Source: a virus
Taxonomy: Duplodnaviria > Heunggongvirae > Uroviricota > Caudoviricetes
Length of the DNA: 22,213 nucleotides
Virus record (IMG/VR): IMGVR_UViG_2645728091_000008
Reading direction: 5' to 3' (one strand)
Positions 2,001 to 12,112 of the stretch are shown here, one piece after another. Made by a program: the position numbers and the translations under genes. The notes under the pieces are model-generated. The model saw only the letters and a program-made list of their open reading frames with translations. It was not told the DNA's origin and did not search any database. The number at the start of each line of letters is the position of its first letter. Within the stretch, counting starts at the first letter, position 1.

Positions 2001-5000
2001 TCAGCTGATACTGATCCCTGCCGTGGATTTTTTCATGACCACAACCAGTAAATCACTGATGTACGTTGTCGGCGTCCAGTTGTTCGCACCGGCCGACGAC
2101 ACATTAAACGTCAGGGTGACATGACCCCGCCCTGCCGGCATATCTATCACCGATGAGAACACCCGGCTGACATCCGTTGCCGGTTCATGGAAAATCTCAA
2201 CCCCGTTCTTCAGCACCTGCAGCTTACAGGTGGAATACCAGTACGACTGCTGATTCGGGCTGTTGAAATTCTGGTGTTTCGTCCCGCGAAACAGCACCGG
2301 GGGAATGATAATCTGCCGGTCGAAGCCCTGGTCATCGTAAACTGTGACGGTTACCGTCCCGCTGGCATAACTGTTATTCCGGGGAAAGGCTTTCCCCACC
2401 GTCTTCACCAGGTCGCCTTCAATCTGGTTTGCAGACAGTTTCCCTCTGATGACACAGTTCTCGTTAATGGTGACATTATTGAGCGTGCCGGTATTCGCGG
2501 TAATTGCTCCGCTGATATCCGCGTTCCTGGCTGTCAGCTTCCCTTCCGGCGTCAGGGAAAACGTCGGGGGGTTGCCGGATGACGTGATACTCGCCGCAAA
2601 CAGACGCTTCAGGAACACGTCGTTCATGAACAGCTGATTCCCCTGCGCCACAAATAACGGAGTGCTGTTGCCGCTCTCCGGATTTATCATCGCGATACGG
2701 TCAGCCAGCAGCAGTATGTTGCTCAGTGGCTGGCCATCAGTATCCTCAATCCCTGCACCAATCCCGGCCACATAGGGAATGCCGTCTTTCGTTTTTTGAA
2801 CCTTCAGCATGTACAGCGCAGCCAGGTCATCATTTGTGTCCTTCTGCACGCGCTGTATCTGCTGAATGGTGGCGCTCTGGTCTTCCAGCGTTTTACTGAC
2901 CGTCTGTGTGATTTCATTGCGGGTTTCGGTGATGGTGGTCTTCATCTCCGCCATCTCATCCGCAAGCTGGCTGTTGTCTATCAGCTCCCATAGCCCCTGA
3001 GCCAGATGCAGTTTTCCTATTTTTTCCCGGAAAAATTCCAGATACCCTTCACCATCATTGCTGGGCTGCCCGCTGACTTCCACAAACGCAGATTTCCCCA
3101 CCAGGTTGACGCTGCGCACGTAAAACCAGAAATCCTTCCCGGGCTTAATGTGCGGGCCGGATACACTCCACTGACTGCCGGTCCCCAGATAACGGGCAGA
3201 GGTTTCCACCTGAGATGTGTCTGCGATTTTTGCCTCCGAAAACCAGAACTCAAACTGTACCGTCGGGTCATACACCGCAAGACGCGGGACCGCCGTTATC
3301 TGAAAATACCCCGGCGTCAGTTCAATGGTGGCGGGTTTTGCTGGCGCGTTAATCCGGAAGGTGGTGGTGGCCGGTTCGCCCTGCTGGCCATAACTGTTAA
3401 TTGCCCTGACTGTCAGGGTGTATTCCCCGAGCGGCAGACCACTGAAACGATGCTCTGTATCCGCAGTGATGGCGGTGGTCACCAGACGGCTGTCTTCTCC
3501 GCTTCCGTTGGTCAGGCGCAGACTGAAGCGCACACCCTTCACCACCCGCGGCGTGTCCCATTTCGCCTGTGCCAGATACTGACCGTCAGCCGCGCTCACC
3601 TCCACCGTCAGGTGCTGCACAGCCGGCGGGATGACGCTGTTCAGCGAACCGGACAGTGGCTCAAAGCTGGCCCCGTTATCCACAATGGCTTCTTTTTCCG
3701 GTACGTGCTGCACCGCCGTGATGGCAAAGGTGCCGTCCGTGTTTTCCCGGATGGAGACACAGCGGAACAGGCGACGACGCAGTGACGGCAGGGAGAGTCC
3801 CCATACACCGTATGTCTCCACACCATCAGGCAGGGTGCTGACCTGTATCCGGTCCGGCGCGGGGTGTGCAGTGATGGCCACGCTCACCGGCTTACCGCTG
3901 CCGTTAATCAGGTTCACCGTGGCGGCACCTGTCTCCGGCAGGGTCACCTCACGGTCCAGTGTCAGGGTGCGGCTGGCGGCATCGATGGACAGGATACGTC
4001 CGCCGGTCATGGTCCCGGCATAGTCGTTATCACAGATTTCAATAATGTCACCGGGTGTGTGACGCAGCCCCTGTGACCCGAGCGTGAAATCCACCGTCTG
4101 CGTTTCCAGCAGTCCGGTCTTTATCACCCACAGCCCGGCACGGTGGGCCTGACCGCGACTGGTGCAACCGAACGCATCCATCTTCAGCAGGTTGCGCCCG
4201 TAGCGCAGTATGGCTTCCGGGTCTTCCACCAGTTCCGTGGAGGTCTGCCAGCCGTTCTGCGGGTCGGTGTAATTCACCTCCACCGCCGTGTGGCGGTCCT
4301 TCAGGGCGCTGAAGCTGTAGCGAAACCCCACGCCGTTATCATCCACCACCACATCGCAGTTGGTGTACGGCCACACCACATCCGACGGGCGGTCCTGAAC
4401 GAACGTCAGCGTCTGGCCGTTCCATACCGGCATACAGCGCATCGCCGAGCAGAAATCACTGAGAACGTCCCACGCCTTACGCTGTTGTGACAGGTACGCA
4501 TTAAAGGTCATCCGCGGCTCTGTGCCCCCGAAACCATCCGGGACCGTCTGGTCGCAGTACTGCCCGATGGCATACAGCGCCCACTTGTCAACATCCGCCG
4601 CCACCAGACGTTTTCCCATGCCGTAGCGCGGGTGAGTCAGCATGTCCCACAGGCACCAGGCCGGGTTGTTGCTGTATGCCGGTTTCAGGCTGCCGTCCCA
4701 GATGCCGCTGTACGTGCGTTTTTCCGGGTCATAGTTTGACGGTACCTGGATGATGCGACCGCGGATATGGTAGTTCACCGTCATCTGCTGACCGCCAAAC
4801 TGCTCCGCATCCACCTGCAGCCCCACAATCGCCGTGTTCGGGTAGCACTGTTTCACATCGATGATTTCGGTGTATGACGACCAGAGCGTCTTATTCTGCA
4901 GCTGGTCCGAGGTGCTGTCCGCTGTCTCCCGGACCATCCGGATGTTAAAGGGCCGCTCAGGCAGATTCTCCAGAATCACCGACGCCAGGTACTGTGAGGT

Positions 5001-5477
5001 GGTCTTGCCGTTAATGGTGACATCCTTTTCCGTCACCCAGTTACCGTTACGCTGCAACTGAATCAGCAGTCGGACAGAAGAGGGATTACGGTCGCCCTTT
5101 GAGGTGGTCTCCAACAGTGACTGCACCCCGAAGGTGACCCGCAGGCGGTCAATGTTCGCGGATGTAATGGTGCGCGTTACCGGCTTTGCCTTCGTCACTT
5201 CCACGCCCAGTCCGGTTTCAGCTCCGGAGGACTCAAAGCCTTCCGGTGGTGTCTGCTCCTGCTCCCCGGCGCGCCAGACCGCGGTCACACCGTGTATCAC
5301 AGGATTGCCGTCCGTGTCCGTCAGCGGGGTTTTGTTCACCAGGATACTCTGCAGCCCCTTCACCGGGCCTTCTATCGGTCCCTCACCAATCGCATCAATC
5401 ACACTCATCATCTGCGTGGATTTGAGATTATCCTTCGCCTCTCGAGGCGTGTGCGCCCTGCCGCCACCTTTGCCCAT
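2001..5477 (-). CDS. J: tail tip / host specificity protein J (central tail fibre), 1158 aa
   Basis: ATG at 5477 with SD GAGAGGA upstream. N-terminus [37 protein letters not shown] is near-identical to recalled lambda J, and length is similar to lambda J (1132 aa). Confidence 0.95.
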
Positions 5478-5491
5478 AATGTTCCTCTCAA

Positions 5492-5546
5492 TTGGTATTA
5501 TTAATCGCAGTGATAGGATATTGCACAGCTATTGCGCGATATCATC
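5492..5546 (+). promoter_or_regulatory. candidate promoter region for sodC (AT-rich; weak -35 TTGGTA 5492..5497, -10-like TAGGAT 5514..5519 or TATCAT 5540..5545)
   Basis: AT-rich stretch between the divergently oriented J start and sodC. Hexamers are imperfect and spacing is not ideal, so this is only a region-level call. Confidence 0.25.
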
Positions 5547-5610
5547 AGAACGCTGTTTGTTACCCTGTAACCAGCAAGCTCAGTCTGTTAACGGAATTAA
5601 TGAGGGTTTT

Positions 5611-6138
5611 ATGAAATGTAAAATCATTGCTGCCATTGCCATGCTGACAGCAGCATCATGCGGATACGCAGCAGAACAGGAAGTCCCAATGAACCTTGTC
5701 AGTGCTGACGGAAAAGAAGTCAGCATTGGAAAAATAACCATTCAGGAGACCCCCTACGGTCTGCTGTTCACACCAGCCCTTCACTCTCTGTCTGAAGGCA
5801 TTCATGGTTTTCATGTGCACGAAAAAGGAAATTGCGCCCCGGCACTGAAAGACGGAAAACCGGTCGCAGCATTATCGGCTGGCGGTCACTTTGACCCGAA
5901 AAACACCGGCAAACATCTTGGCCCCTGGTCTCCGGATGGACACCTGGGCGACCTCCCTGCGCTGTTCGTGACGCATGACGGAAAAGCGAACTACCCGGTC
6001 CTGGCCCCGAGACTGAACTCATTAAAAGAGATTAAAGGGCGTTCTCTCATGCTTCATGCTGGCGGTGATAACCATCATGACCATCCGGAGCCCCTGGGCG
6101 GTGGTGGTGCGAGAATGGCCTGCGGCATCATTCAATAA
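5611..6138 (+). CDS. sodC: periplasmic Cu,Zn superoxide dismutase (175 aa), prophage moron
   Basis: ATG 5611 with SD GAGGG 4 nt upstream, TAA at 6136..6138. N-terminal signal peptide [17 protein letters not shown]. Cu/Zn-SOD signatures [33 protein letters not shown] and [14 protein letters not shown]. It is the C-terminal part of track ORF 5104..6138; the upstream extension is antisense to J and rejected. Confidence 0.95.
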
Positions 6139-6144
6139 TCAGTC

Positions 6145-6173
6145 AGGTAAGGGGCGGGCCCCTTACCTTTATT
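6145..6173 (+). terminator. intrinsic terminator of sodC
   Basis: Perfect 10-bp stem AGGTAAGGGG (6145..6154) / CCCCTTACCT (6159..6168), loop CGGG, followed by TTATT. Begins 7 nt after the sodC stop. No T-tract on the other strand. Confidence 0.75.
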
Positions 6174-6285
6174 CCTCAGGACGATAAATCCTTTCTCCCT
6201 GAAAAGAACGGCACATCCTCCCTCTCTGAGTTAATGTTTTTGTCGTGACATAAGAATAATTCCTTACACTCAATCTTCGTAACGC

Positions 6286-6323
6286 TCCCGCAGTTCCTGT
6301 CCGTGAGCACTGCGGGATTTTTT
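6286..6323 (+). terminator. second plus-strand terminator-like hairpin (9-bp stem, 14-nt loop, T6)
   Basis: TCCCGCAGT (6286..6294) pairs with ACTGCGGGA (6309..6317), followed by TTTTTT (6318..6323). Sits immediately beside the stop codon of I (6329..6331). The minus strand has no T-tract after the stem. Confidence 0.5.
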
Positions 6324-6328
6324 CGCTT

Positions 6329-7009
6329 TTATGCCTGCCGCCCGATAACCACGACCTTTCCGCCCCCGCCTTCATCACGGGTACTGATGTCCTGGGATAT
6401 ACGGCGGGAGCCAACCAGCATTTCACCGTAAGGCACCGGCATCGGGTTCCCCTGGGCAATCATGTTATCCAGCGAGGAAAAGTACGTGTTCTGTCTGCCG
6501 TTATCCGTGCTTTTGTACTCCGGTACTTTAGCCTTCGGGGCCAGCATCTGAGCCACACCACCCAGAATCATGCTGGCCCCCAGTGAAAACAGCATCGTGG
6601 TGGCAGAAAAACCACCGGCTGCCAGGGCTGAACCCCATAACGCCATTGATGCCCCGGCAGTGAAGAAAGAGCCCACGATGGCTGCCGCCCCCAGCACAAT
6701 CTGCAGTCCACCCTTTCCGGCCCCGGCCAGTCGCGGCACAATGTGGATGACCGTTCCCTCACCCAGCTGTTCGTGAAGACGGGCGTACACCGCCTCCGGT
6801 GCCGTGTCCTCACCGCGAATACGTATCTGGTACCAGCCTTCGTTCATCTGACGGCGGAATCCCGGCATCTGCATCGACAGGGCACGGATAGCTTCCGCTG
6901 CCGTGTTCACATACAGGCTGAGGCGGCGGCCAAATCGTTGTAAATCCCCGTGAAGGCAGATACGTGCCAGTGGCGGTGACGCCAGGCTGAATGCGTTCGT
7001 CGTTGCCAT
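6329..7009 (-). CDS. I: tail assembly protein I (226 aa)
   Basis: ATG at 7009. MATTNAFSLASPPLARICLHGDLQRFGRR and the Gly/Ala-rich middle match recalled lambda I. Overlaps the 3' end of K by about 100 nt, as K and I do in lambda. Confidence 0.9.
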   Translation of the reverse strand: MATTNAFSLASPPLARICLHGDLQRFGRRLSLYVNTAAEAIRALSMQMPGFRRQMNEGWYQIRIRGEDTAPEAVYARLHEQLGEGTVIHIVPRLAGAGKGGLQIVLGAAAIVGSFFTAGASMALWGSALAAGGFSATTMLFSLGASMILGGVAQMLAPKAKVPEYKSTDNGRQNTYFSSLDNMIAQGNPMPVPYGEMLVGSRRISQDISTRDEGGGGKVVVIGRQA

Positions 7010-7651
7010 TTTTCGGAATACCTCTCCCGTTTACTCAGTTGTTCAGGCAGATGGTGAAGCAGCTCACCGTTGCCGCAGTATATGGCGGCATGATTGGCCA
7101 CCGATGCGCCAAAGCAGCACAGCAGGATATCGCCAGGCTGTGCGGAAGGCAGGGAAATCCTGTAAAAACCAGTCGCCTCCATATTGTCCAGGTACAGGTT
7201 CTGACCGTTGCGCCACCAGTCATCCTCACGCTCAAAATCCGGCATATCAATTCCCGCCAGATGGTAGGCATCCCGGAACAGCGTGTAACAGTCCGTCACC
7301 CCGTGCTCAAAGCGCCGTCCTGTCAGATGTGGCACACAGCGGAATTTATGAATTTCCCCCCCGGCAGACCAGCCACCAGGACAGTGCACTTTTTATCTGC
7401 AGCCGCCGGTCGGCCTCGCTCAGCCAGGGCAGACCACCGGGATGACTGTGGACCAGTGCCACAATCTCCCCCTGCATCTCTGCCCGCAGCCAGTCTTCCG
7501 GTGCAATACGAAAATACGCCTCCGGCTCTGCAGAGATATTCACACAAGGGATATACCGCTCCCCCTCCGGCGTTCTCACCACGAAGCCGCACGACTCCGC
7601 AGGCACACACCGCCGGGCATGCGCCAGAATCGCTGATTCTGTCTGTGTCAT
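6907..7651 (-). pseudogene. K: tail tip assembly protein K (MPN/JAMM N-domain plus NlpC/P60 C-domain), reading frame broken at a G7 tract
   Basis: N-terminal ORF 7346..7651 (ATG 7651; HSHPGGLPWLSEADR JAMM motif) ends at TAA 7346..7348. C-terminal ORF 6907..7389 (DCYTLFRDAY, HAAIYCG) is in the adjacent frame. The frames can only be joined within 7349..7392, which contains the C7 run at 7356..7362. Removing one C gives a continuous ...WWLVCRGEIHKFRCVPHLTGRRFEHG... Confidence 0.75.
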
Positions 7652-8355: not shown

Positions 8356-8684
8356 CAGTTCACCACCTGCTTAAACTCCGCGCTGAATTCAACCCGCAGC
8401 ATGCGAACCCGTGATGACCAGGCGGCACAGGTCACCTTTATCTGCCGCCAGGCATAAGGCGGTGTCCACAGAAACGCCTTCCAGCCACCGTGCTCTGCCA
8501 GGAATGCCTCCAGATGTCGGGCCTCCTCCCGGGTCACGGAAAGCGTCACACGGTATGTTTTCAGGTCAGCATTCAGCCCCGCCGCCATACGCTGCGAATA
8601 CCCGTCACCAAAACGCACTTCACGCACCGATGGCTGCGAGTTCACCTCCATATCCGGCTTCACTTTCCAGCGAAATGTTTTCAT
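8355..8684 (-). CDS. M: minor tail protein M (109 aa)
   Basis: ATG 8684 overlapping the H stop; ATGA overlap with L. Size and position as in lambda. Confidence 0.9.
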   Translation of the reverse strand: MKTFRWKVKPDMEVNSQPSVREVRFGDGYSQRMAAGLNADLKTYRVTLSVTREEARHLEAFLAEHGGWKAFLWTPPYAWRQIKVTCAAWSSRVRMLRVEFSAEFKQVVN

Positions 8685-11260
8685 CGCCTGCCTCCGGAAA
8701 AGACGCCGCCATCACGCATCTGCGCCTGAATCTCATCCTGCGCCCCCTTGCGGGCCATGTCATACACCGCCTTCATCAGCTGCGGCCCCGCCTGTCCGTT
8801 GGTGCCGTCGTTCTGAATCACCACGTGATTGTTCTGATTAAAACTAATGCCTTCCGCCCGCCGCATCTGCGCCGGACTTCCGGCACCGCCCACATAACCA
8901 CCTTCCGCATACCCGCGCATCAGACGATACAGGTTGCCGACGCCAATCCGGCTGGTTGCCTCCTTCGTGAAGACAAACTCCCCGCGGTGGACAATACCGG
9001 CAGGTTCGTATTTGCCACCGGTTCCCGTAAATCCTCCGGTCGCGAAATGGAAGTTCGCCGCCGCAGCCTGAATGGCCGTCCCCGTGGAGGCAGACGCCCC
9101 ACCACCGAAAGCACCACCCATGGCGCTGCCAATACTCCCGACAATCCCCACCATGGCCTGCTTCAGAAAAATCTCTGTCAGCATGGAGAGCACAGAACGG
9201 GTGAAACCACGCCAGCTCTGTTCGCTGCCGGTCAGCATCGCTGCCATATTCTGTGCAATACCGTCAAAGGTCTGCGTGGCCACGCTTTTAACCTGCGAAA
9301 AACTGTCCGTCGCACTTTCTGCCCACTCGCCCCAGCCGGGCTTCAGACCGGCCATCCAGCTTCCACGAAGCTGCTCCTCCGCAGACCAGGTGTTCTTCAG
9401 TGCAGATGTGGCCTTCGCCAGCGCATCCGGATTATCACCGTACACGTCACGAAGGCGCTGCTCTTCCGACTCCCGCTGCACCTGACGGTCGGTGAGGCCC
9501 CGCGCCTGGGCACTGATTGCCGCCTGCTTCGCGCCCTGCTGCTGCTCAAACCGCGCAGCCTGCTGTGCCAGCTCATTCAGCCGTTTCTGGTGTTCAACTT
9601 TGTCTCCCAGCTCAGCCAGCTGGCGTTTGTACTCCAGCGTCTCTTTCTCATGGGTCAGCAGGGATTTTTCCTGCTCAGATAACTGCCGTTTCGTGGCTGC
9701 CTCTTTCAGGACCGCATACTGATTTTCCGCTTTCCATAAATCGCGACGCTGCTGGCTGATTTTCCCATTCGCACCGCTGTGTTTTTCCAGCGTCCGGAGC
9801 TCGGTTTCAAGCGCCAGCAGGGCAGCATGCGCCTGGTCTTCCTGACGCTCACCGGCTGACACTTTGACTCCTGACGACTTCGGCTTTTTCAGCGTCGATT
9901 CATAATCCTTTTTCGCCGCCGCCATCAGCGTGTTGTAATCCGCCTGCAGGATTTTCCCGTCTTTCAGGGCCTTATTCAGTTCTTCCTGACGGGCGGTATA
10001 TTTCTCCAGCGGCGTCAGCAGACGCTCATACGCCTTCTGCGCCTCTCCGGTATACTTCAGCTGTGATGCGTCCCGTTCGGCCCGGTCCCTGGCGGCCAGT
10101 TCACCGGCTTTTTCCATATCCGACTGCAGCGTGGCCGCTGCCAGCCCCAGACGGGCATTTTCCCGGTCATTCCATGCGCCCTGAAGGTTGGCCCGGAAAG
10201 AGGAGGTTTTACCGCGGCGCTGGCTCCGACTCTGGTACCACTGCCATTTTTTATCCGCCTCATCAAATGCCTTCTGCGCACTGGCGAGCATATCCGCTGA
10301 GGATTCCGGACGACCGATATCCAGAATGGCATCCCACATCGATTTGAATGCCTTCCCTGTTTTATCCGCCCAGGTCTCCAGTGTTCCCATGTTTTCTTTC
10401 AGGCGACGGGTCTGCTCATCAAAGCCTTTCGTGGCGATATCGTTCGCCGCCTGCAATGCCCCGGCCTCGTCTCCGGAACGCTGCAGCTGTGCAACATACG
10501 CAATCTGCTCTGCCGTCACGTTACGGAACTGGCGCGCCATCGCCATCAGTCCCGACGTCGGGTCAGTGGTCAGCTTCCCGAAGGCTTCAGCGACTTTATC
10601 CACCTCCACACCGGATGCAGACGCAAAACGCGCGACACTCTGGTTGATGGCATCAAACTGTTCACCACCACGCACACCGGCATTCACCAGGGCTGCCAGT
10701 GACTCTCTCGCCTGGTTAAACGTCAGCCCTGCTGCCTGCCCGGCTCTTGAGAGAGTCAGCATACGATCGGCAGTCAGTCCGGACTGATTACCGGAAAGAA
10801 CCAGGGTTTTATTAAACGCTGAAAGCGTGGAATCCCCCTGGTACCAGGCGTACGCCAGCGCACCTGTCGCCACCGCCAGCGAGGTGACCCCGACCATCGG
10901 CAGGGTGATCGCACCGGCAAGCCCCCTGAGCATGGGGATCATCCCGCCGAAGGAGTCCTTCACCTGACCGCCCTGTTGCAGCAGGATCAGCCAGGGATTC
11001 TGACCACCGGCAAGCTGCGTGGCGATATCCGTAAACTGTGCGGGCAGGGTGCGCATGGCCGCTTTATACTGTCCGACGGAAATCCCGGCTTTTTGCGCAG
11101 CCAGCGCCTGACGGCTCAGGCCCTGTTCAACAGCAGTGGCGGTTTTTCTGGCGTCAGTATCCAGTCCTGAAAAATGACGCCTTACCCGGCTCATCTGCTC
11201 ATCGAAACGGACCGCATCCAGACTCAGGTCAATAATAAGATCACCAACCGGCTGGGACAT
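8681..11260 (-). CDS. H: tail tape measure protein H (859 aa)
   Basis: ATG 11260. MSQPVGDLIIDLSLDAVRFDEQMSRVRRHF and long stretches (for example QLAGGQNPWLILLQQGGQVKDSFGGMIPM) match recalled lambda H (853 aa). Confidence 0.95.
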   Translation of the reverse strand: MSQPVGDLIIDLSLDAVRFDEQMSRVRRHFSGLDTDARKTATAVEQGLSRQALAAQKAGISVGQYKAAMRTLPAQFTDIATQLAGGQNPWLILLQQGGQVKDSFGGMIPMLRGLAGAITLPMVGVTSLAVATGALAYAWYQGDSTLSAFNKTLVLSGNQSGLTADRMLTLSRAGQAAGLTFNQARESLAALVNAGVRGGEQFDAINQSVARFASASGVEVDKVAEAFGKLTTDPTSGLMAMARQFRNVTAEQIAYVAQLQRSGDEAGALQAANDIATKGFDEQTRRLKENMGTLETWADKTGKAFKSMWDAILDIGRPESSADMLASAQKAFDEADKKWQWYQSRSQRRGKTSSFRANLQGAWNDRENARLGLAAATLQSDMEKAGELAARDRAERDASQLKYTGEAQKAYERLLTPLEKYTARQEELNKALKDGKILQADYNTLMAAAKKDYESTLKKPKSSGVKVSAGERQEDQAHAALLALETELRTLEKHSGANGKISQQRRDLWKAENQYAVLKEAATKRQLSEQEKSLLTHEKETLEYKRQLAELGDKVEHQKRLNELAQQAARFEQQQGAKQAAISAQARGLTDRQVQRESEEQRLRDVYGDNPDALAKATSALKNTWSAEEQLRGSWMAGLKPGWGEWAESATDSFSQVKSVATQTFDGIAQNMAAMLTGSEQSWRGFTRSVLSMLTEIFLKQAMVGIVGSIGSAMGGAFGGGASASTGTAIQAAAANFHFATGGFTGTGGKYEPAGIVHRGEFVFTKEATSRIGVGNLYRLMRGYAEGGYVGGAGSPAQMRRAEGISFNQNNHVVIQNDGTNGQAGPQLMKAVYDMARKGAQDEIQAQMRDGGVFSGGRR

Positions 11261-12112
11261 ATCTCACACCTCCTGGAATCCCCGCTGAAGCCATCATTAA
11301 TGCGGCATCATCCACCATGACATCCGCCACATCCGCAGACGATAAAATATCGCCCCCTCCGTCCCCACCGAACCGGACGCCTCCGGCAAGTCCTGCCGCT
11401 TTCTGCATCAGCATTTTGTCCTCATCCAGCCTCTCCACCTGCTCTTCCTCATGCCGGGGGACAAGCAGACTGAAATCAGAGGGATGCATATCCGGATCGC
11501 AAAAAAACAGGCTGAGTACAGCGTACATCAGCCCGGAAAAATGCATATCCAGTTGGGTATCCTGAAAATAATGCGTGCGGTAAAAATGTCGCCAGTCGGC
11601 ATATTCGGTGGATGTCATCCCGGCAAGCATGGCGCGCCAGTCAGGCCTCCCCATCTCTCGCGCCAGTCTGAGGGCAAAATTCAGCTCGCCGTCGAAGACT
11701 TTCCCGCAGAAAAATCATCATCAGTAAGCGCGTTATTTTTCGCCACTTCGGTGATATCCGTATCCACATGAACAGCCCCGCTCATCCCGGACAGACGCAA
11801 CACCACGTCTTCCGCCCGGGCAATGGCATCAGCAGGCCAGGTGGTGAGCACCTCCTGTTCGATCTGCATCACAGCCTCATTCATTGATGGTGACTCCGTT
11901 TTCTGTGGATGGTTATGCCACAGGGACATCGCCACCAGAAACGCGCCGGTTCTGACAAGGTCTTCCACGCTCACCTGCAGGTTACCGCTGGCTTCAGCCT
12001 GTTCTGCCCGTCGTTTCAGCAGGGCAAGATGCTCGATACGCTGCAGCGCAGACAGCTCGGAAAGCGTGACGGACACACCGTTATATTCAAATTGTTCGGT
12101 TTTCAGAAACAT
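11241..12112 (-). CDS. GT: tail assembly chaperone G-T fusion made by a -1 programmed ribosomal frameshift (T-frame part 11241..11705)
   Basis: T-frame ORF 11241..11654 (MGRPDWRAMLAGMTSTEYADW) has the same codon phase as the -1 frame leaving the slippery heptamer. No stop occurs between 11697 and 11655 in that frame. Confidence 0.8.
11681..12112 (-). CDS. G: tail assembly chaperone G (143 aa)
   Basis: ATG 12112. MFLKTEQFEYNGVSVTLSELSALQRIEHLALLKR matches recalled lambda G. Ends ...SAGKSSTAS with TGA at 11681..11683. Confidence 0.9.
   Translation of the reverse strand: MFLKTEQFEYNGVSVTLSELSALQRIEHLALLKRRAEQAEASGNLQVSVEDLVRTGAFLVAMSLWHNHPQKTESPSMNEAVMQIEQEVLTTWPADAIARAEDVVLRLSGMSGAVHVDTDITEVAKNNALTDDDFSAGKSSTAS
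11699..11705 (-). promoter_or_regulatory. slippery heptamer G GGA AAG for the G/GT -1 frameshift
   Basis: Minus-strand GGGAAAG, with GGA and AAG as zero-frame codons of G, six codons before the G stop. Same heptamer and position as the lambda G-T recoding site. Confidence 0.8.

What the first reader, a model, noticed from the sequence alone, without database searches (positions are those of the whole stretch)
6174..6323. Two tandem plus-strand terminators with a ~110-nt spacer downstream of sodC: possible small transcript
A perfect terminator follows sodC at 6145..6173, yet a second plus-oriented stem-loop with a T6 tract sits at 6286..6323, abutting the I stop. Neither has a T-tract on the minus strand, so late-operon transcription would pass while plus-strand transcripts stop. 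The spacer 6174..6285 has no credible ORF. It may be a backup terminator, or the 3' end of a short non-coding RNA; lambdoid prophages are known to carry sRNAs near tail genes.
Basis: inference. Interest (0 to 1): 0.45.

Follow-up and report, generated by a model that had tools for sequence, protein, structure and literature searches.

The report
Promoterless PasB-type sRNA cassette behind sodC
The second hairpin after the prophage sodC gene is the terminator of a known Hfq-binding prophage small RNA (PasB in EPEC, EcOnc22-24 in EHEC), but in this copy the sodC insertion has replaced the small RNA's own promoter, so it probably now works mainly as a back-up terminator or 3' tail of sodC transcripts.

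Summary
Two plus-strand stem-loops with U-tracts follow sodC, at 6145-6174 and 6286-6323, and neither has a T-tract on the minus strand.

The second hairpin is not a chance feature. A covariance model was built from 21 I-J spacer sRNA variants that lack sodC and exclude the window-like subgroup. It matches window 6228-6324 (+) over its full length (57.7 bits, E 8e-9).

That family is already known experimentally. It includes EcOnc22/23/24 (EHEC Sakai; Hfq-CRAC peak, ~85-nt northern band, destabilised in Δhfq). It also includes PasB (EPEC E2348/69; 83 nt, Hfq-dependent, 37 RIL-seq partners). Members lie antisense in the spacer between tail genes I and J and end 5-6 nt from the I stop.

What differs here is the sodC cassette (5478-6222), which replaces the J-proximal part of the spacer. 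That part includes the family's conserved σ70 promoter (TTCACA-N16-TATAAT). The junction at 6222/6223 lies 5 nt upstream of the homologous transcription start.

In Sakai, the three promoter-bearing copies are listed Hfq-bound sRNAs. The two sodC-linked copies are not listed.

The most likely reading is a decapitated sRNA cassette that now serves as a fail-safe terminator or 3' extension of sodC. This is a known kind of element, and interest is modest.

The parts
2001..5477 (-). Tail tip / host specificity gene J, part of the late operon on the minus strand.
   Evidence: ORF of 1158 aa. The homologous Sakai CDS is annotated as phage host specificity protein.
5478..6222 (+). sodC cassette (a moron). 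It replaces the J-proximal ~131 nt of the ancestral I-J spacer. It contains the sodC promoter region, sodC, terminator T1 and a 49-nt tail.
   Evidence: Phages without sodC align with the window up to 5477 and again from 6223. All 12 sodC-linked IMG/VR copies share the same right-hand junction.
5611..6138 (+). sodC-F, the prophage Cu,Zn superoxide dismutase CDS.
   Evidence: The sequence gives ATG at 5611 and TAA at 6136-6138. This agrees with the Sakai annotation ECs_1989. The gene is expressed from its own rpoS-independent promoter in lysogens (PMC2569942).
6145..6174 (+). T1, the sodC cassette's own intrinsic terminator: a 10-bp stem, a 4-nt loop and UUUAUU.
   Evidence: -17.4 kcal/mol.
6175..6222 (+). 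3' tail of the sodC cassette, with no homolog in spacers that lack sodC. It occupies the position of the family promoter.
   Evidence: Alignments A1 and A2. The promoter score at the homologous position is 5/12.
6228..6324 (+). Homolog of the PasB / EcOnc22-24 sRNA: body plus terminator. By homology the 5' end falls between 6228 (the promoter-predicted start) and about 6242 (the mapped PasB start).
   Evidence: Covariance model R1 matches over its full length, 57.7 bits, E 8e-9. See also alignments A2 and A3.
6237..6259 (+). A U5 run (6237-6241) and the A-rich stretch AUAAGAAUAA (6250-6259, repeated A-R-N triplets). These are candidate Hfq-contact modules.
   Evidence: Both are conserved across family variants. 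The EcOnc22 Hfq-CRAC peak covers the homologous stretch. Assigning them a role as Hfq contacts is an inference.
6260..6279 (+). Conserved single-stranded core UUCCUUACACUCAAUCUUCG. It contains an anti-Shine-Dalgarno-like CUCC/UUCC and the invariant AUCUUC, and is the presumed seed.
   Evidence: The columns are invariant or nearly invariant in A3 and unpaired in the consensus fold. The seed function is inferred.
6286..6323 (+). T2, the intrinsic terminator of the sRNA cassette: a 9-bp stem, a 14-nt loop and U6.
   Evidence: The stem is invariant and the loop variable across 45 family variants.
6329..6910 (-). Tail assembly gene I. Its stop codon is at 6329-6331.
   Evidence: ORF and the Sakai annotation ECs_1987.

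Best explanation
Window 6223-6328 is the I-proximal half of the ancestral I-J intergenic spacer of a lambdoid tail operon. It carries the body and intrinsic terminator (T2) of a PasB / EcOnc22-24-type Hfq-dependent small RNA, encoded antisense to the late operon. A sodC cassette (5478-6222: promoter, sodC, its own terminator T1 and 49 nt) replaced the other half of the spacer. The replaced half included the sRNA's σ70 promoter, and the junction lies 5 nt upstream of the homologous transcription start. The 'tandem terminators' are therefore the cassette's terminator followed by the resident sRNA's terminator.

Inferred mechanism for this copy: plus-strand transcription reaching the segment now comes mainly from the sodC promoter. 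T1 stops most of it. T2 stops what reads through, before it can run antisense into I-K-L. Any RNA that carries the PasB-like module is then a 3' extension of sodC mRNA rather than an autonomous sRNA. Late-operon (minus-strand) transcription passes both hairpins, because neither has a U-tract in that direction.

Shown: the homology, the anatomy, the promoter loss and the orientation. Inferred: the relative use of T1 and T2, and low autonomous expression.
For: Family identity
- Model R1 was built from 21 sodC-less variants, none from the window's own subgroup. It hits 6228-6324 (+) over its full length at 57.7 bits, E 8e-9.
- The EcOnc22/23/24 Hfq-CRAC peaks (Tree 2014, Table S2) fall in the 240-nt I-J spacers of Sp15, Sp14 and Sp11.
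- After the +128 coordinate correction (calibrated on AgvB1/AgvB2), the EcOnc22 peak starts 85 nt upstream of the end of the U-tract. That matches the ~85-nt northern band.
- PasB (83 nt, NC_011601.1 1466343-1466261, minus strand) lies in the same spacer, 6 nt from the I stop. Its northern probe is the reverse complement of the terminator hairpin.

Promoter loss
- At the homologous position, 71 of 106 sodC-less copies score at least 10/12 against the σ70 consensus (TTCACA-N16-TATAAT), and 33 score 8/12.
- All 12 sodC-linked copies, and the window itself, score 5/12 there.
- The best σ70-like match anywhere in 6130-6300 is 8/12, and it lies inside the sRNA body.
- The junction is at the same place in every comparison.

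Natural experiment in Sakai
- The promoter-bearing copies (Sp11, Sp14, Sp15) are listed as Hfq-bound sRNAs.
- The sodC-linked copies (Sp10, which is 100% identical to the window over 5400-6400, and Sp4) are not listed.

Transcription input and directionality
- sodC-F is transcribed from its own promoter in lysogens (PMC2569942).
- Both hairpins are unidirectional.
Against: - No transcript data for this copy could be examined. Absence from a thresholded peak list is weak negative evidence.
- EcOnc22-type promoters score only 7-8/12 and are still expressed (with the northern result). Consensus scores are therefore a poor predictor.
- The residual CATCCT at 6214-6219 keeps the two most critical -10 positions, A2 and T6.
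- The sRNA body is intact. It is identical to the closest promoter-bearing variant from 6238 to 6328. That fits either recent insertion or continued selection.
- T1 looks like a competent terminator, so little read-through may reach T2.
Confidence: 0.55

Rival explanations
1. The copy is still an autonomous sRNA gene. A weak or unconventional promoter, created at or near the cassette junction or lying inside the old 5' region, drives a discrete PasB-like sRNA. Candidates are TTTCTC-16-CATCCT at 6192-6219, or TTAATG-18-AATAAT at 6231-6260, which would give a ~58-nt RNA. The sRNA would end at T2, bind Hfq and regulate mRNAs in trans.
For: - The complete sRNA body, the A-R-N stretch, the conserved core and the U6 terminator are all retained.
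- Weak σ70-like matches exist.
- Family members with 7-8/12 promoters are expressed.
- Very short prophage sRNAs of 51-66 nt are known in the same strains (PMC4104026; PMC13502914).
Against: - The native -35 and -10 elements are gone in all 12 sodC-linked copies.
- No Hfq-CRAC peak is listed for the Sp10 or Sp4 copies in the same experiment that detected the three promoter-bearing copies.
- The internal 8/12 match is also present in promoter-bearing relatives, where the mapped RNA is ~83-85 nt rather than ~58 nt.
Confidence: 0.2
2. A 3'UTR-derived sRNA. A substantial fraction of sodC transcripts read through T1 and end at T2. RNase E processing then releases the PasB-like module as an Hfq-bound sRNA, whose level is tied to sodC expression.
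For: - T1 has an interrupted U-tract (UUUAUUCCU).
- sodC-F is actively transcribed in lysogens.
- The module keeps features typical of Hfq-binding RNAs, namely the A-R-N run and a U6 tail.
- 3'UTR-derived sRNAs are a well established class in enterobacteria (general knowledge).
Against: - T1 is a stable 10-bp GC-rich hairpin (-17.4 kcal/mol), and 5 of the first 6 residues after it are U. It is probably efficient.
- No Hfq peak is listed at either sodC-linked copy.
- No processing site can be predicted with these tools.
Confidence: 0.2
3. The hairpins are ordinary sodC terminators or fortuitous hairpins with no relation to any sRNA, or hairpin 2 works on the late (minus-strand) mRNA as a stability or processing element after gene I.
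For: - Both hairpins also fold on the minus strand.
- Hairpin 2 abuts the I stop codon.
Against: - The full-length covariance-model match extends about 58 nt upstream of the hairpin.
- In relatives the same segment has a plus-strand promoter, a plus-strand U-tract, plus-strand Hfq crosslinks and a northern-verified plus-strand RNA.
- Hairpin 2 is present in more than 100 phages that have no sodC at all.
Confidence: 0.04

Closest known systems
PasB (EPEC E2348/69, prophage PP6; Pearl Mizrahi et al. 2021, PMC8550237; Zhu, Shabalina & Storz 2026 preprint)
   Same: - Same genomic slot: the I-J spacer, antisense to the tail operon, with the 3' end 5-6 nt from the I stop.
- Same terminator stem, CCCGCAG/CUGCGGG followed by a U-run.
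- Same conserved core (…CUCC/UUCC…AUCUUC…), with a U-run and an A-rich run upstream.
   Different: - PasB has a near-consensus promoter (TTCACA-N16-TATAAT), which the window lacks.
- Sequence identity is only about 70%.
- The terminator loop is 11 nt in PasB and 14 nt here.
- PasB has verified expression, strong Hfq dependence (log2 change -6.8 in the RNA-seq table) and 37 RIL-seq partners. None of this is known for the window copy.
EcOnc22/EcOnc23/EcOnc24 (EHEC Sakai prophages Sp15, Sp14, Sp11; Tree et al. 2014, PMC4104026)
   Same: Same slot, orientation, terminator and core. These are about 85-nt Hfq-bound RNAs ending at the homologous U-tract.
   Different: - The identity is about 75%.
- These copies retain the 240-nt spacer with its promoter and an upstream hairpin.
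- The window's Sakai equivalents (Sp10, Sp4) are not in the published sRNA list.
Prophage sRNAs at moron sites: AgvB, AsxR, HnrS (EcOnc10-12), StxS
   Same: They are short Hfq-binding sRNAs with intrinsic terminators, carried by lambdoid prophages of EHEC and EPEC next to accessory ('moron') genes.
   Different: They occupy different loci (downstream of PR' or within late genes) and have unrelated sequences. No Rfam family, AgvB and AsxR included, matches the window, whereas the AgvB model does find AgvB1 and AgvB2 in Sakai control loci.
Tandem intrinsic terminators and 3'UTR-derived sRNAs (general classes, e.g. rrnB T1-T2; CpxQ, SroC)
   Same: Two same-strand terminators follow an expressed gene. 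A terminator-proximal module typical of Hfq-binding RNAs sits at the end of an mRNA 3' region.
   Different: Here the second terminator has an independent evolutionary origin, as a resident sRNA gene. Co-transcription and processing have not been shown.

Membership tests
PasB / EcOnc22-24 prophage sRNA family | Located in the spacer between tail genes I and J of a lambdoid prophage, antisense to the late operon, with the 3' end a few nt from the I stop codon. | tested here: met
   Window: J 2001-5477 (-), I 6329-6910 (-), element 6228-6324 (+), U-tract ending 5 nt from the I stop. The arrangement is the same in Sp11, Sp14, Sp15 and E2348/69.
PasB / EcOnc22-24 prophage sRNA family | Sequence and structure homology across the whole ~95-nt RNA. 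| tested here: met
   Covariance model R1, built without window-like sequences, gives a full-length match of 57.7 bits, E 8e-9. The next hit in the window has E 8.7.
PasB / EcOnc22-24 prophage sRNA family | Intrinsic terminator with the stem CCCGCAG/CUGCGGG, a variable 10-16-nt loop and a U6-7 tract. | tested here: met
   6286-6323. The stem is invariant and the loop variable in 45 variants. There is no covariation, because the stem never varies and the 3' arm was part of the search pattern.
PasB / EcOnc22-24 prophage sRNA family | Own σ70 promoter, with the -10 element ending about 6 nt upstream of the conserved GCGUUA start. | tested here: not met
   The window scores 5/12 at the homologous position (TTTCTC-16-CATCCT), against at least 10/12 in 71 of 106 sodC-less copies. 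The sodC cassette junction at 6222/6223 removes both hexamers.
PasB / EcOnc22-24 prophage sRNA family | Expressed as a discrete ~83-85-nt RNA that binds Hfq and is stabilised by it. | not testable with these tools
   No raw RNA-seq, Term-seq or CRAC data are available. The published peak list contains the promoter-bearing Sakai copies but not the sodC-linked Sp10 and Sp4 copies. This is suggestive only.
Intrinsic (Rho-independent) terminator | Stable GC-rich stem-loop immediately followed by a U-tract on the transcribed strand. | tested here: met
   T1: -17.4 kcal/mol followed by UUUAUU. T2: -16.1 kcal/mol followed by U6. There is no U-tract on the opposite strand. Termination activity itself was not tested.
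Moron (autonomously expressed accessory cassette in a phage late region) | An extra gene with its own promoter and terminator, present in some otherwise collinear phages and absent from others. | tested here: met
   Phages with and without sodC are collinear apart from 5478-6222. The cassette has its own terminator T1. Its own rpoS-independent promoter activity has been reported (PMC2569942).
Rfam families (all 4227, including AgvB, AsxR, Esr41, STnc100) | Score at or above the family's gathering threshold. | tested here: not met
   There are no hits at gathering threshold anywhere in the window. The best sub-threshold hit is STnc400 at 23 bits against a threshold of 80, and it covers only the sodC 3' end and T1. 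STnc400 maps to an unrelated Salmonella locus.
3'UTR-derived sRNA | Co-transcription with the upstream mRNA, followed by release through processing or by sharing the mRNA terminator. | not testable with these tools
   This needs 5'-end chemistry (monophosphate versus triphosphate) and read-through measurements at T1.

The most novel reading that the evidence does not exclude
The sodC insertion converted a free-standing Hfq-dependent prophage sRNA gene into the 3' end of a virulence-gene mRNA. The PasB-like regulator would then be made only by read-through or processing of sodC transcripts, so its output would be coupled to SodC expression. This would be a natural, datable example of an sRNA gene becoming a 3'UTR-derived sRNA through moron capture. 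The arrangement is present in about 10% of complete E. coli genomes (539 of 5426).
Probability: 0.2. Interest if true: 0.55.

Novelty: new member of a known kind. Interest (0 to 1): 0.33.

Why it matters
The result assigns an unannotated 100-nt segment to an experimentally validated but functionally uncharacterised sRNA family. That segment is present in two prophages of the reference EHEC strain and in hundreds of E. coli genomes.

It also links two literature names, PasB and EcOnc22-24, which the papers I could read do not connect.

It shows that the family is broader than word-size-28 BLAST surveys would detect.

Finally, promoter-bearing and promoterless copies coexist in one strain. This offers a ready-made natural experiment on how moron insertion rewires prophage riboregulation. 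On its own it is not a new kind of element.

Tried and rejected
- Rfam at gathering threshold on the whole window, and at E<=10 on 5900-6600, gave nothing relevant. The weak STnc400 hit (E 0.053) covers only the sodC 3' end and T1, and STnc400 maps to STM3844/45 in Salmonella. Rejected.
- AgvB, AsxR, HnrS (EcOnc10-12) and svsR were considered as identities. All are at other prophage positions and have unrelated sequences.
- The uncorrected Tree et al. coordinates put the EcOnc22 peak on the upstream spacer hairpin. Calibration on AgvB1 and AgvB2 showed a +128 shift between genome versions, which moves the peak onto the terminator-proximal 85 nt.
- The genome-contig scan used too loose a pattern.
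- A 5' hairpin (U-run pairing with the A-run) was examined. Energies were -1 to -6.5 kcal/mol with non-significant z-scores, and RNAalifold does not predict it. I do not claim it.
- There is no covariation support for the terminator stem, because it is invariant and partly fixed by my search pattern.
- The Term-seq/dRNA-seq tables of Sy et al. 2020 are not held, so 3' and 5' ends could not be checked.
- Searches for ECs1989, ECs1120 and sodC-F1 found no sRNA report at this locus.
- Gifsy-2 sodCI was checked as a possible source of the cassette. Only the coding region is similar (65%), and it sits at a different tail junction.
- A 6-codon mini-ORF on the late strand, opposite the sRNA body, is not conserved in other variants and was dropped (read by eye from the sequences).

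Full report
**Anatomy**

The window carries a lambdoid tail operon on the minus strand: H 8681-11260, M, L, K, I 6329-6910 and J 2001-5477.

Between I and J, on the plus strand, lies a Cu,Zn superoxide dismutase gene, sodC (5611-6138). It is followed by two stem-loops.
- T1 is at 6145-6168 (10 bp, -17.4 kcal/mol) with the tail UUUAUU.
- T2 is at 6286-6317 (9 bp, 14-nt loop, -16.1 kcal/mol) with U6 at 6318-6323. The U6 run ends 5 nt before the I stop codon.
- On the minus strand neither hairpin is followed by a T-tract.

No credible ORF lies between the hairpins.

**Where the segment comes from**

Window 5400-6400 is 100% identical to prophage Sp10 of E. coli O157:H7 Sakai. The wider window is only about 94% identical to Sp10.

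1448 of 5426 complete E. coli genomes match part of 6100-6400, and 539 match at least 80% of it.

Many Stx1, Stx2a and Stx2c phages that have no sodC still match the window from 6223 onward at 96-98%, and match again at the J start. The sodC cassette therefore spans 5478-6222. It replaced the J-proximal ~131 nt of an ancestral ~240-nt I-J spacer, while 6223-6328 is the surviving I-proximal part (alignment A1).

All 12 sodC-linked copies among 120 IMG/VR loci share this junction, which points to a single event.

Salmonella Gifsy-2 sodCI resembles the gene only in its coding region (65%) and sits at a different tail junction. It is a separate insertion.

**What the surviving part is**

Rfam has no match, but the literature does.

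*EcOnc22/23/24.* Table S2 of Tree et al. 2014 lists these three sRNAs in Sakai prophages Sp15, Sp14 and Sp11. They have an Hfq-CRAC peak and a northern band of ~85 nt, and they are destabilised in Δhfq.
- Their coordinates fall in the 240-nt I-J spacers of those prophages, on the strand antisense to the tail operon.
- The paper used an older genome version. I calibrated the offset with the Rfam AgvB model on the AgvB1 and AgvB2 loci. It is +128 on both sides of the three sites.
- After correction, the EcOnc22 peak is CTTTTTTGATGCCTGAAAAATAACTCCATAACGTTAATCTTCATCGTTCTCTCCCGCAGCT. From the start of the peak to the end of the terminator U-tract is 85 nt, the size of the northern band.

*PasB.* This sRNA of EPEC E2348/69 is 83 nt, northern-verified and strongly reduced without Hfq. 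It has 37 RIL-seq interactions and is almost always the second RNA in chimeras.
- It maps to 1466343-1466261 (minus strand), which is again the I-J spacer, 6 nt from the I stop.
- Its published probe is the reverse complement of the same hairpin.

PasB and EcOnc22-24 are therefore one family. The PasB papers I could read do not say so: the homologue column for PasB is empty, and the 2026 survey preprint contains no occurrence of 'EcOnc'.

**Membership test**

I collected 120 phage loci by pattern, which gave 45 distinct variants. I then aligned 21 variants that lack sodC and do not belong to the window's own subgroup (A3).
- The consensus structure is an unstructured body followed by the terminator.
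- A covariance model built from A3 hits window 6228-6324 (+) end to end: 57.7 bits, E 8e-9. The next best hit in the window has E 8.7.
- Conserved features present in the window are a U-run (6237-6241), an A-rich A-R-N stretch (6250-6259), a pyrimidine core with an anti-Shine-Dalgarno-like UUCC/CUCC and the invariant AUCUUC (6260-6279), and the terminator.
- Assigning the A/U runs to Hfq contacts and the core to a seed is inference. It is consistent with the position of the CRAC peak.
- A possible 5' hairpin (U-run with A-run) is too weak to claim.

**What is different in this copy**

Every sodC-less variant keeps a promoter-like element whose -10 hexamer ends 6 nt upstream of the conserved GCGTTA. 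It is typically TTCACA-N16-TATAAT (11/12).
- 71 of 106 copies score at least 10/12, and 33 score 8/12.
- In the window and in all 12 sodC-linked copies, the cassette tail (…GAACGGCACATCCTCCC) occupies that position and scores 5/12.
- The junction is 5 nt upstream of the homologous start.
- The best σ70-like match left in 6130-6300 is 8/12. It lies inside the RNA body and is shared with relatives whose RNA is nevertheless ~83-85 nt.

Sakai provides a natural comparison within a single experiment.
- The promoter-bearing copies (Sp11, Sp14, Sp15) are all listed as Hfq-bound sRNAs.
- The two sodC-linked copies are not listed. These are Sp10 and Sp4, the latter next to ECs_1120.
- This is negative evidence from a thresholded list, so it is only suggestive.
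- EcOnc22-type promoters score just 7-8/12 and still work, which shows that consensus scores are an imperfect guide.

**Most likely mechanism**

sodC-F is transcribed from its own rpoS-independent promoter in lysogens (PMC2569942).
- T1 belongs to the cassette and probably ends most of those transcripts.
- T2 is the resident sRNA's terminator. It now catches read-through before it runs antisense into I, K and L.
- Both hairpins let Q-modified late transcription pass on the other strand, because they lack U-tracts in that direction.
- The PasB-like body is probably either silent or present only on sodC read-through RNA.

I rate the homology and anatomy as near certain. The functional reading (mainly a fail-safe terminator or 3' extension, with little autonomous sRNA) I put at roughly 0.55. 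The rivals are an autonomous sRNA from a weak new promoter (0.2) and a genuine 3'UTR-derived sRNA (0.2). A reading with no relation to any sRNA is essentially excluded.

**Verdict**

The element is a new, promoterless, sodC-linked member of a known sRNA family. Interest is modest. The useful products are the annotation, the PasB = EcOnc22-24 equivalence, and a testable case of a moron insertion decapitating an sRNA gene.

Noticed in passing
window 6907-7651 (minus strand), C-run 7350-7356: Tail gene K is split into two ORFs (7346..7651 and 6907..7389). The cause is one extra C in a C7 run relative to the intact 744-nt K gene (ECs_1986) of Sakai Sp10. This is either a frameshifted K, implying a defective prophage, or a homopolymer sequencing error.
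   Followed up: partly
L004:1739-1765 (Sp15 spacer), L002 about 2905-2935, L008 about 1930-1955; absent from the window: I-J spacers without sodC carry a second conserved hairpin, CAGGCAYCC-CGGA-GGRTGCCTG. On the late-operon strand it is followed by TTGTTTT, so it looks like an intrinsic terminator between I and J. A C:G to U:A compensatory change separates Sp15 from an Stx2c phage. The sodC cassette has replaced it in the window.
   Followed up: partly
window 5478-5490 (minus strand): The sodC cassette begins immediately next to the J start codon. J therefore has a different Shine-Dalgarno region here (GAGAGGAA) than in phages without sodC (GGGTGAG).
   Followed up: no
literature; L008:1762-1844 (PasB) and L004:1842-1926 (EcOnc22): PasB (EPEC) and EcOnc22/23/24 (EHEC) are the same sRNA family at the same prophage position. 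The PasB table gives no EHEC homologue, and the 2026 Pas survey preprint never mentions EcOnc. The family is not in Rfam.
   Followed up: yes
whole window versus Sakai Sp10 (L001) and Sp4 (L250): The window is not Sakai Sp10. It is about 94% identical over 5 kb around the locus and 95-97.5% identical to Sp4 over its aligned segments, yet 5400-6400 is 100% identical to Sp10. This suggests that the sodC-spacer block moves between prophages by recombination.
   Followed up: partly
L251 (Gifsy-2) 2400-2933: Salmonella Gifsy-2 sodCI is also antisense to the tail operon, but it is inserted between the lom-like/M genes and L rather than between I and J. This is an independent insertion of a sodC cassette into a tail-gene junction.
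   Followed up: partly
window 11500-11535 (minus strand): A hairpin followed by T7 (GGGCTGATGTACGCTGTACTCAGCCTGTTTTTTT) lies inside the ORF 11241..11654, upstream of H. It surfaced only as an insignificant covariance-model hit (E 8.7).
   Followed up: no
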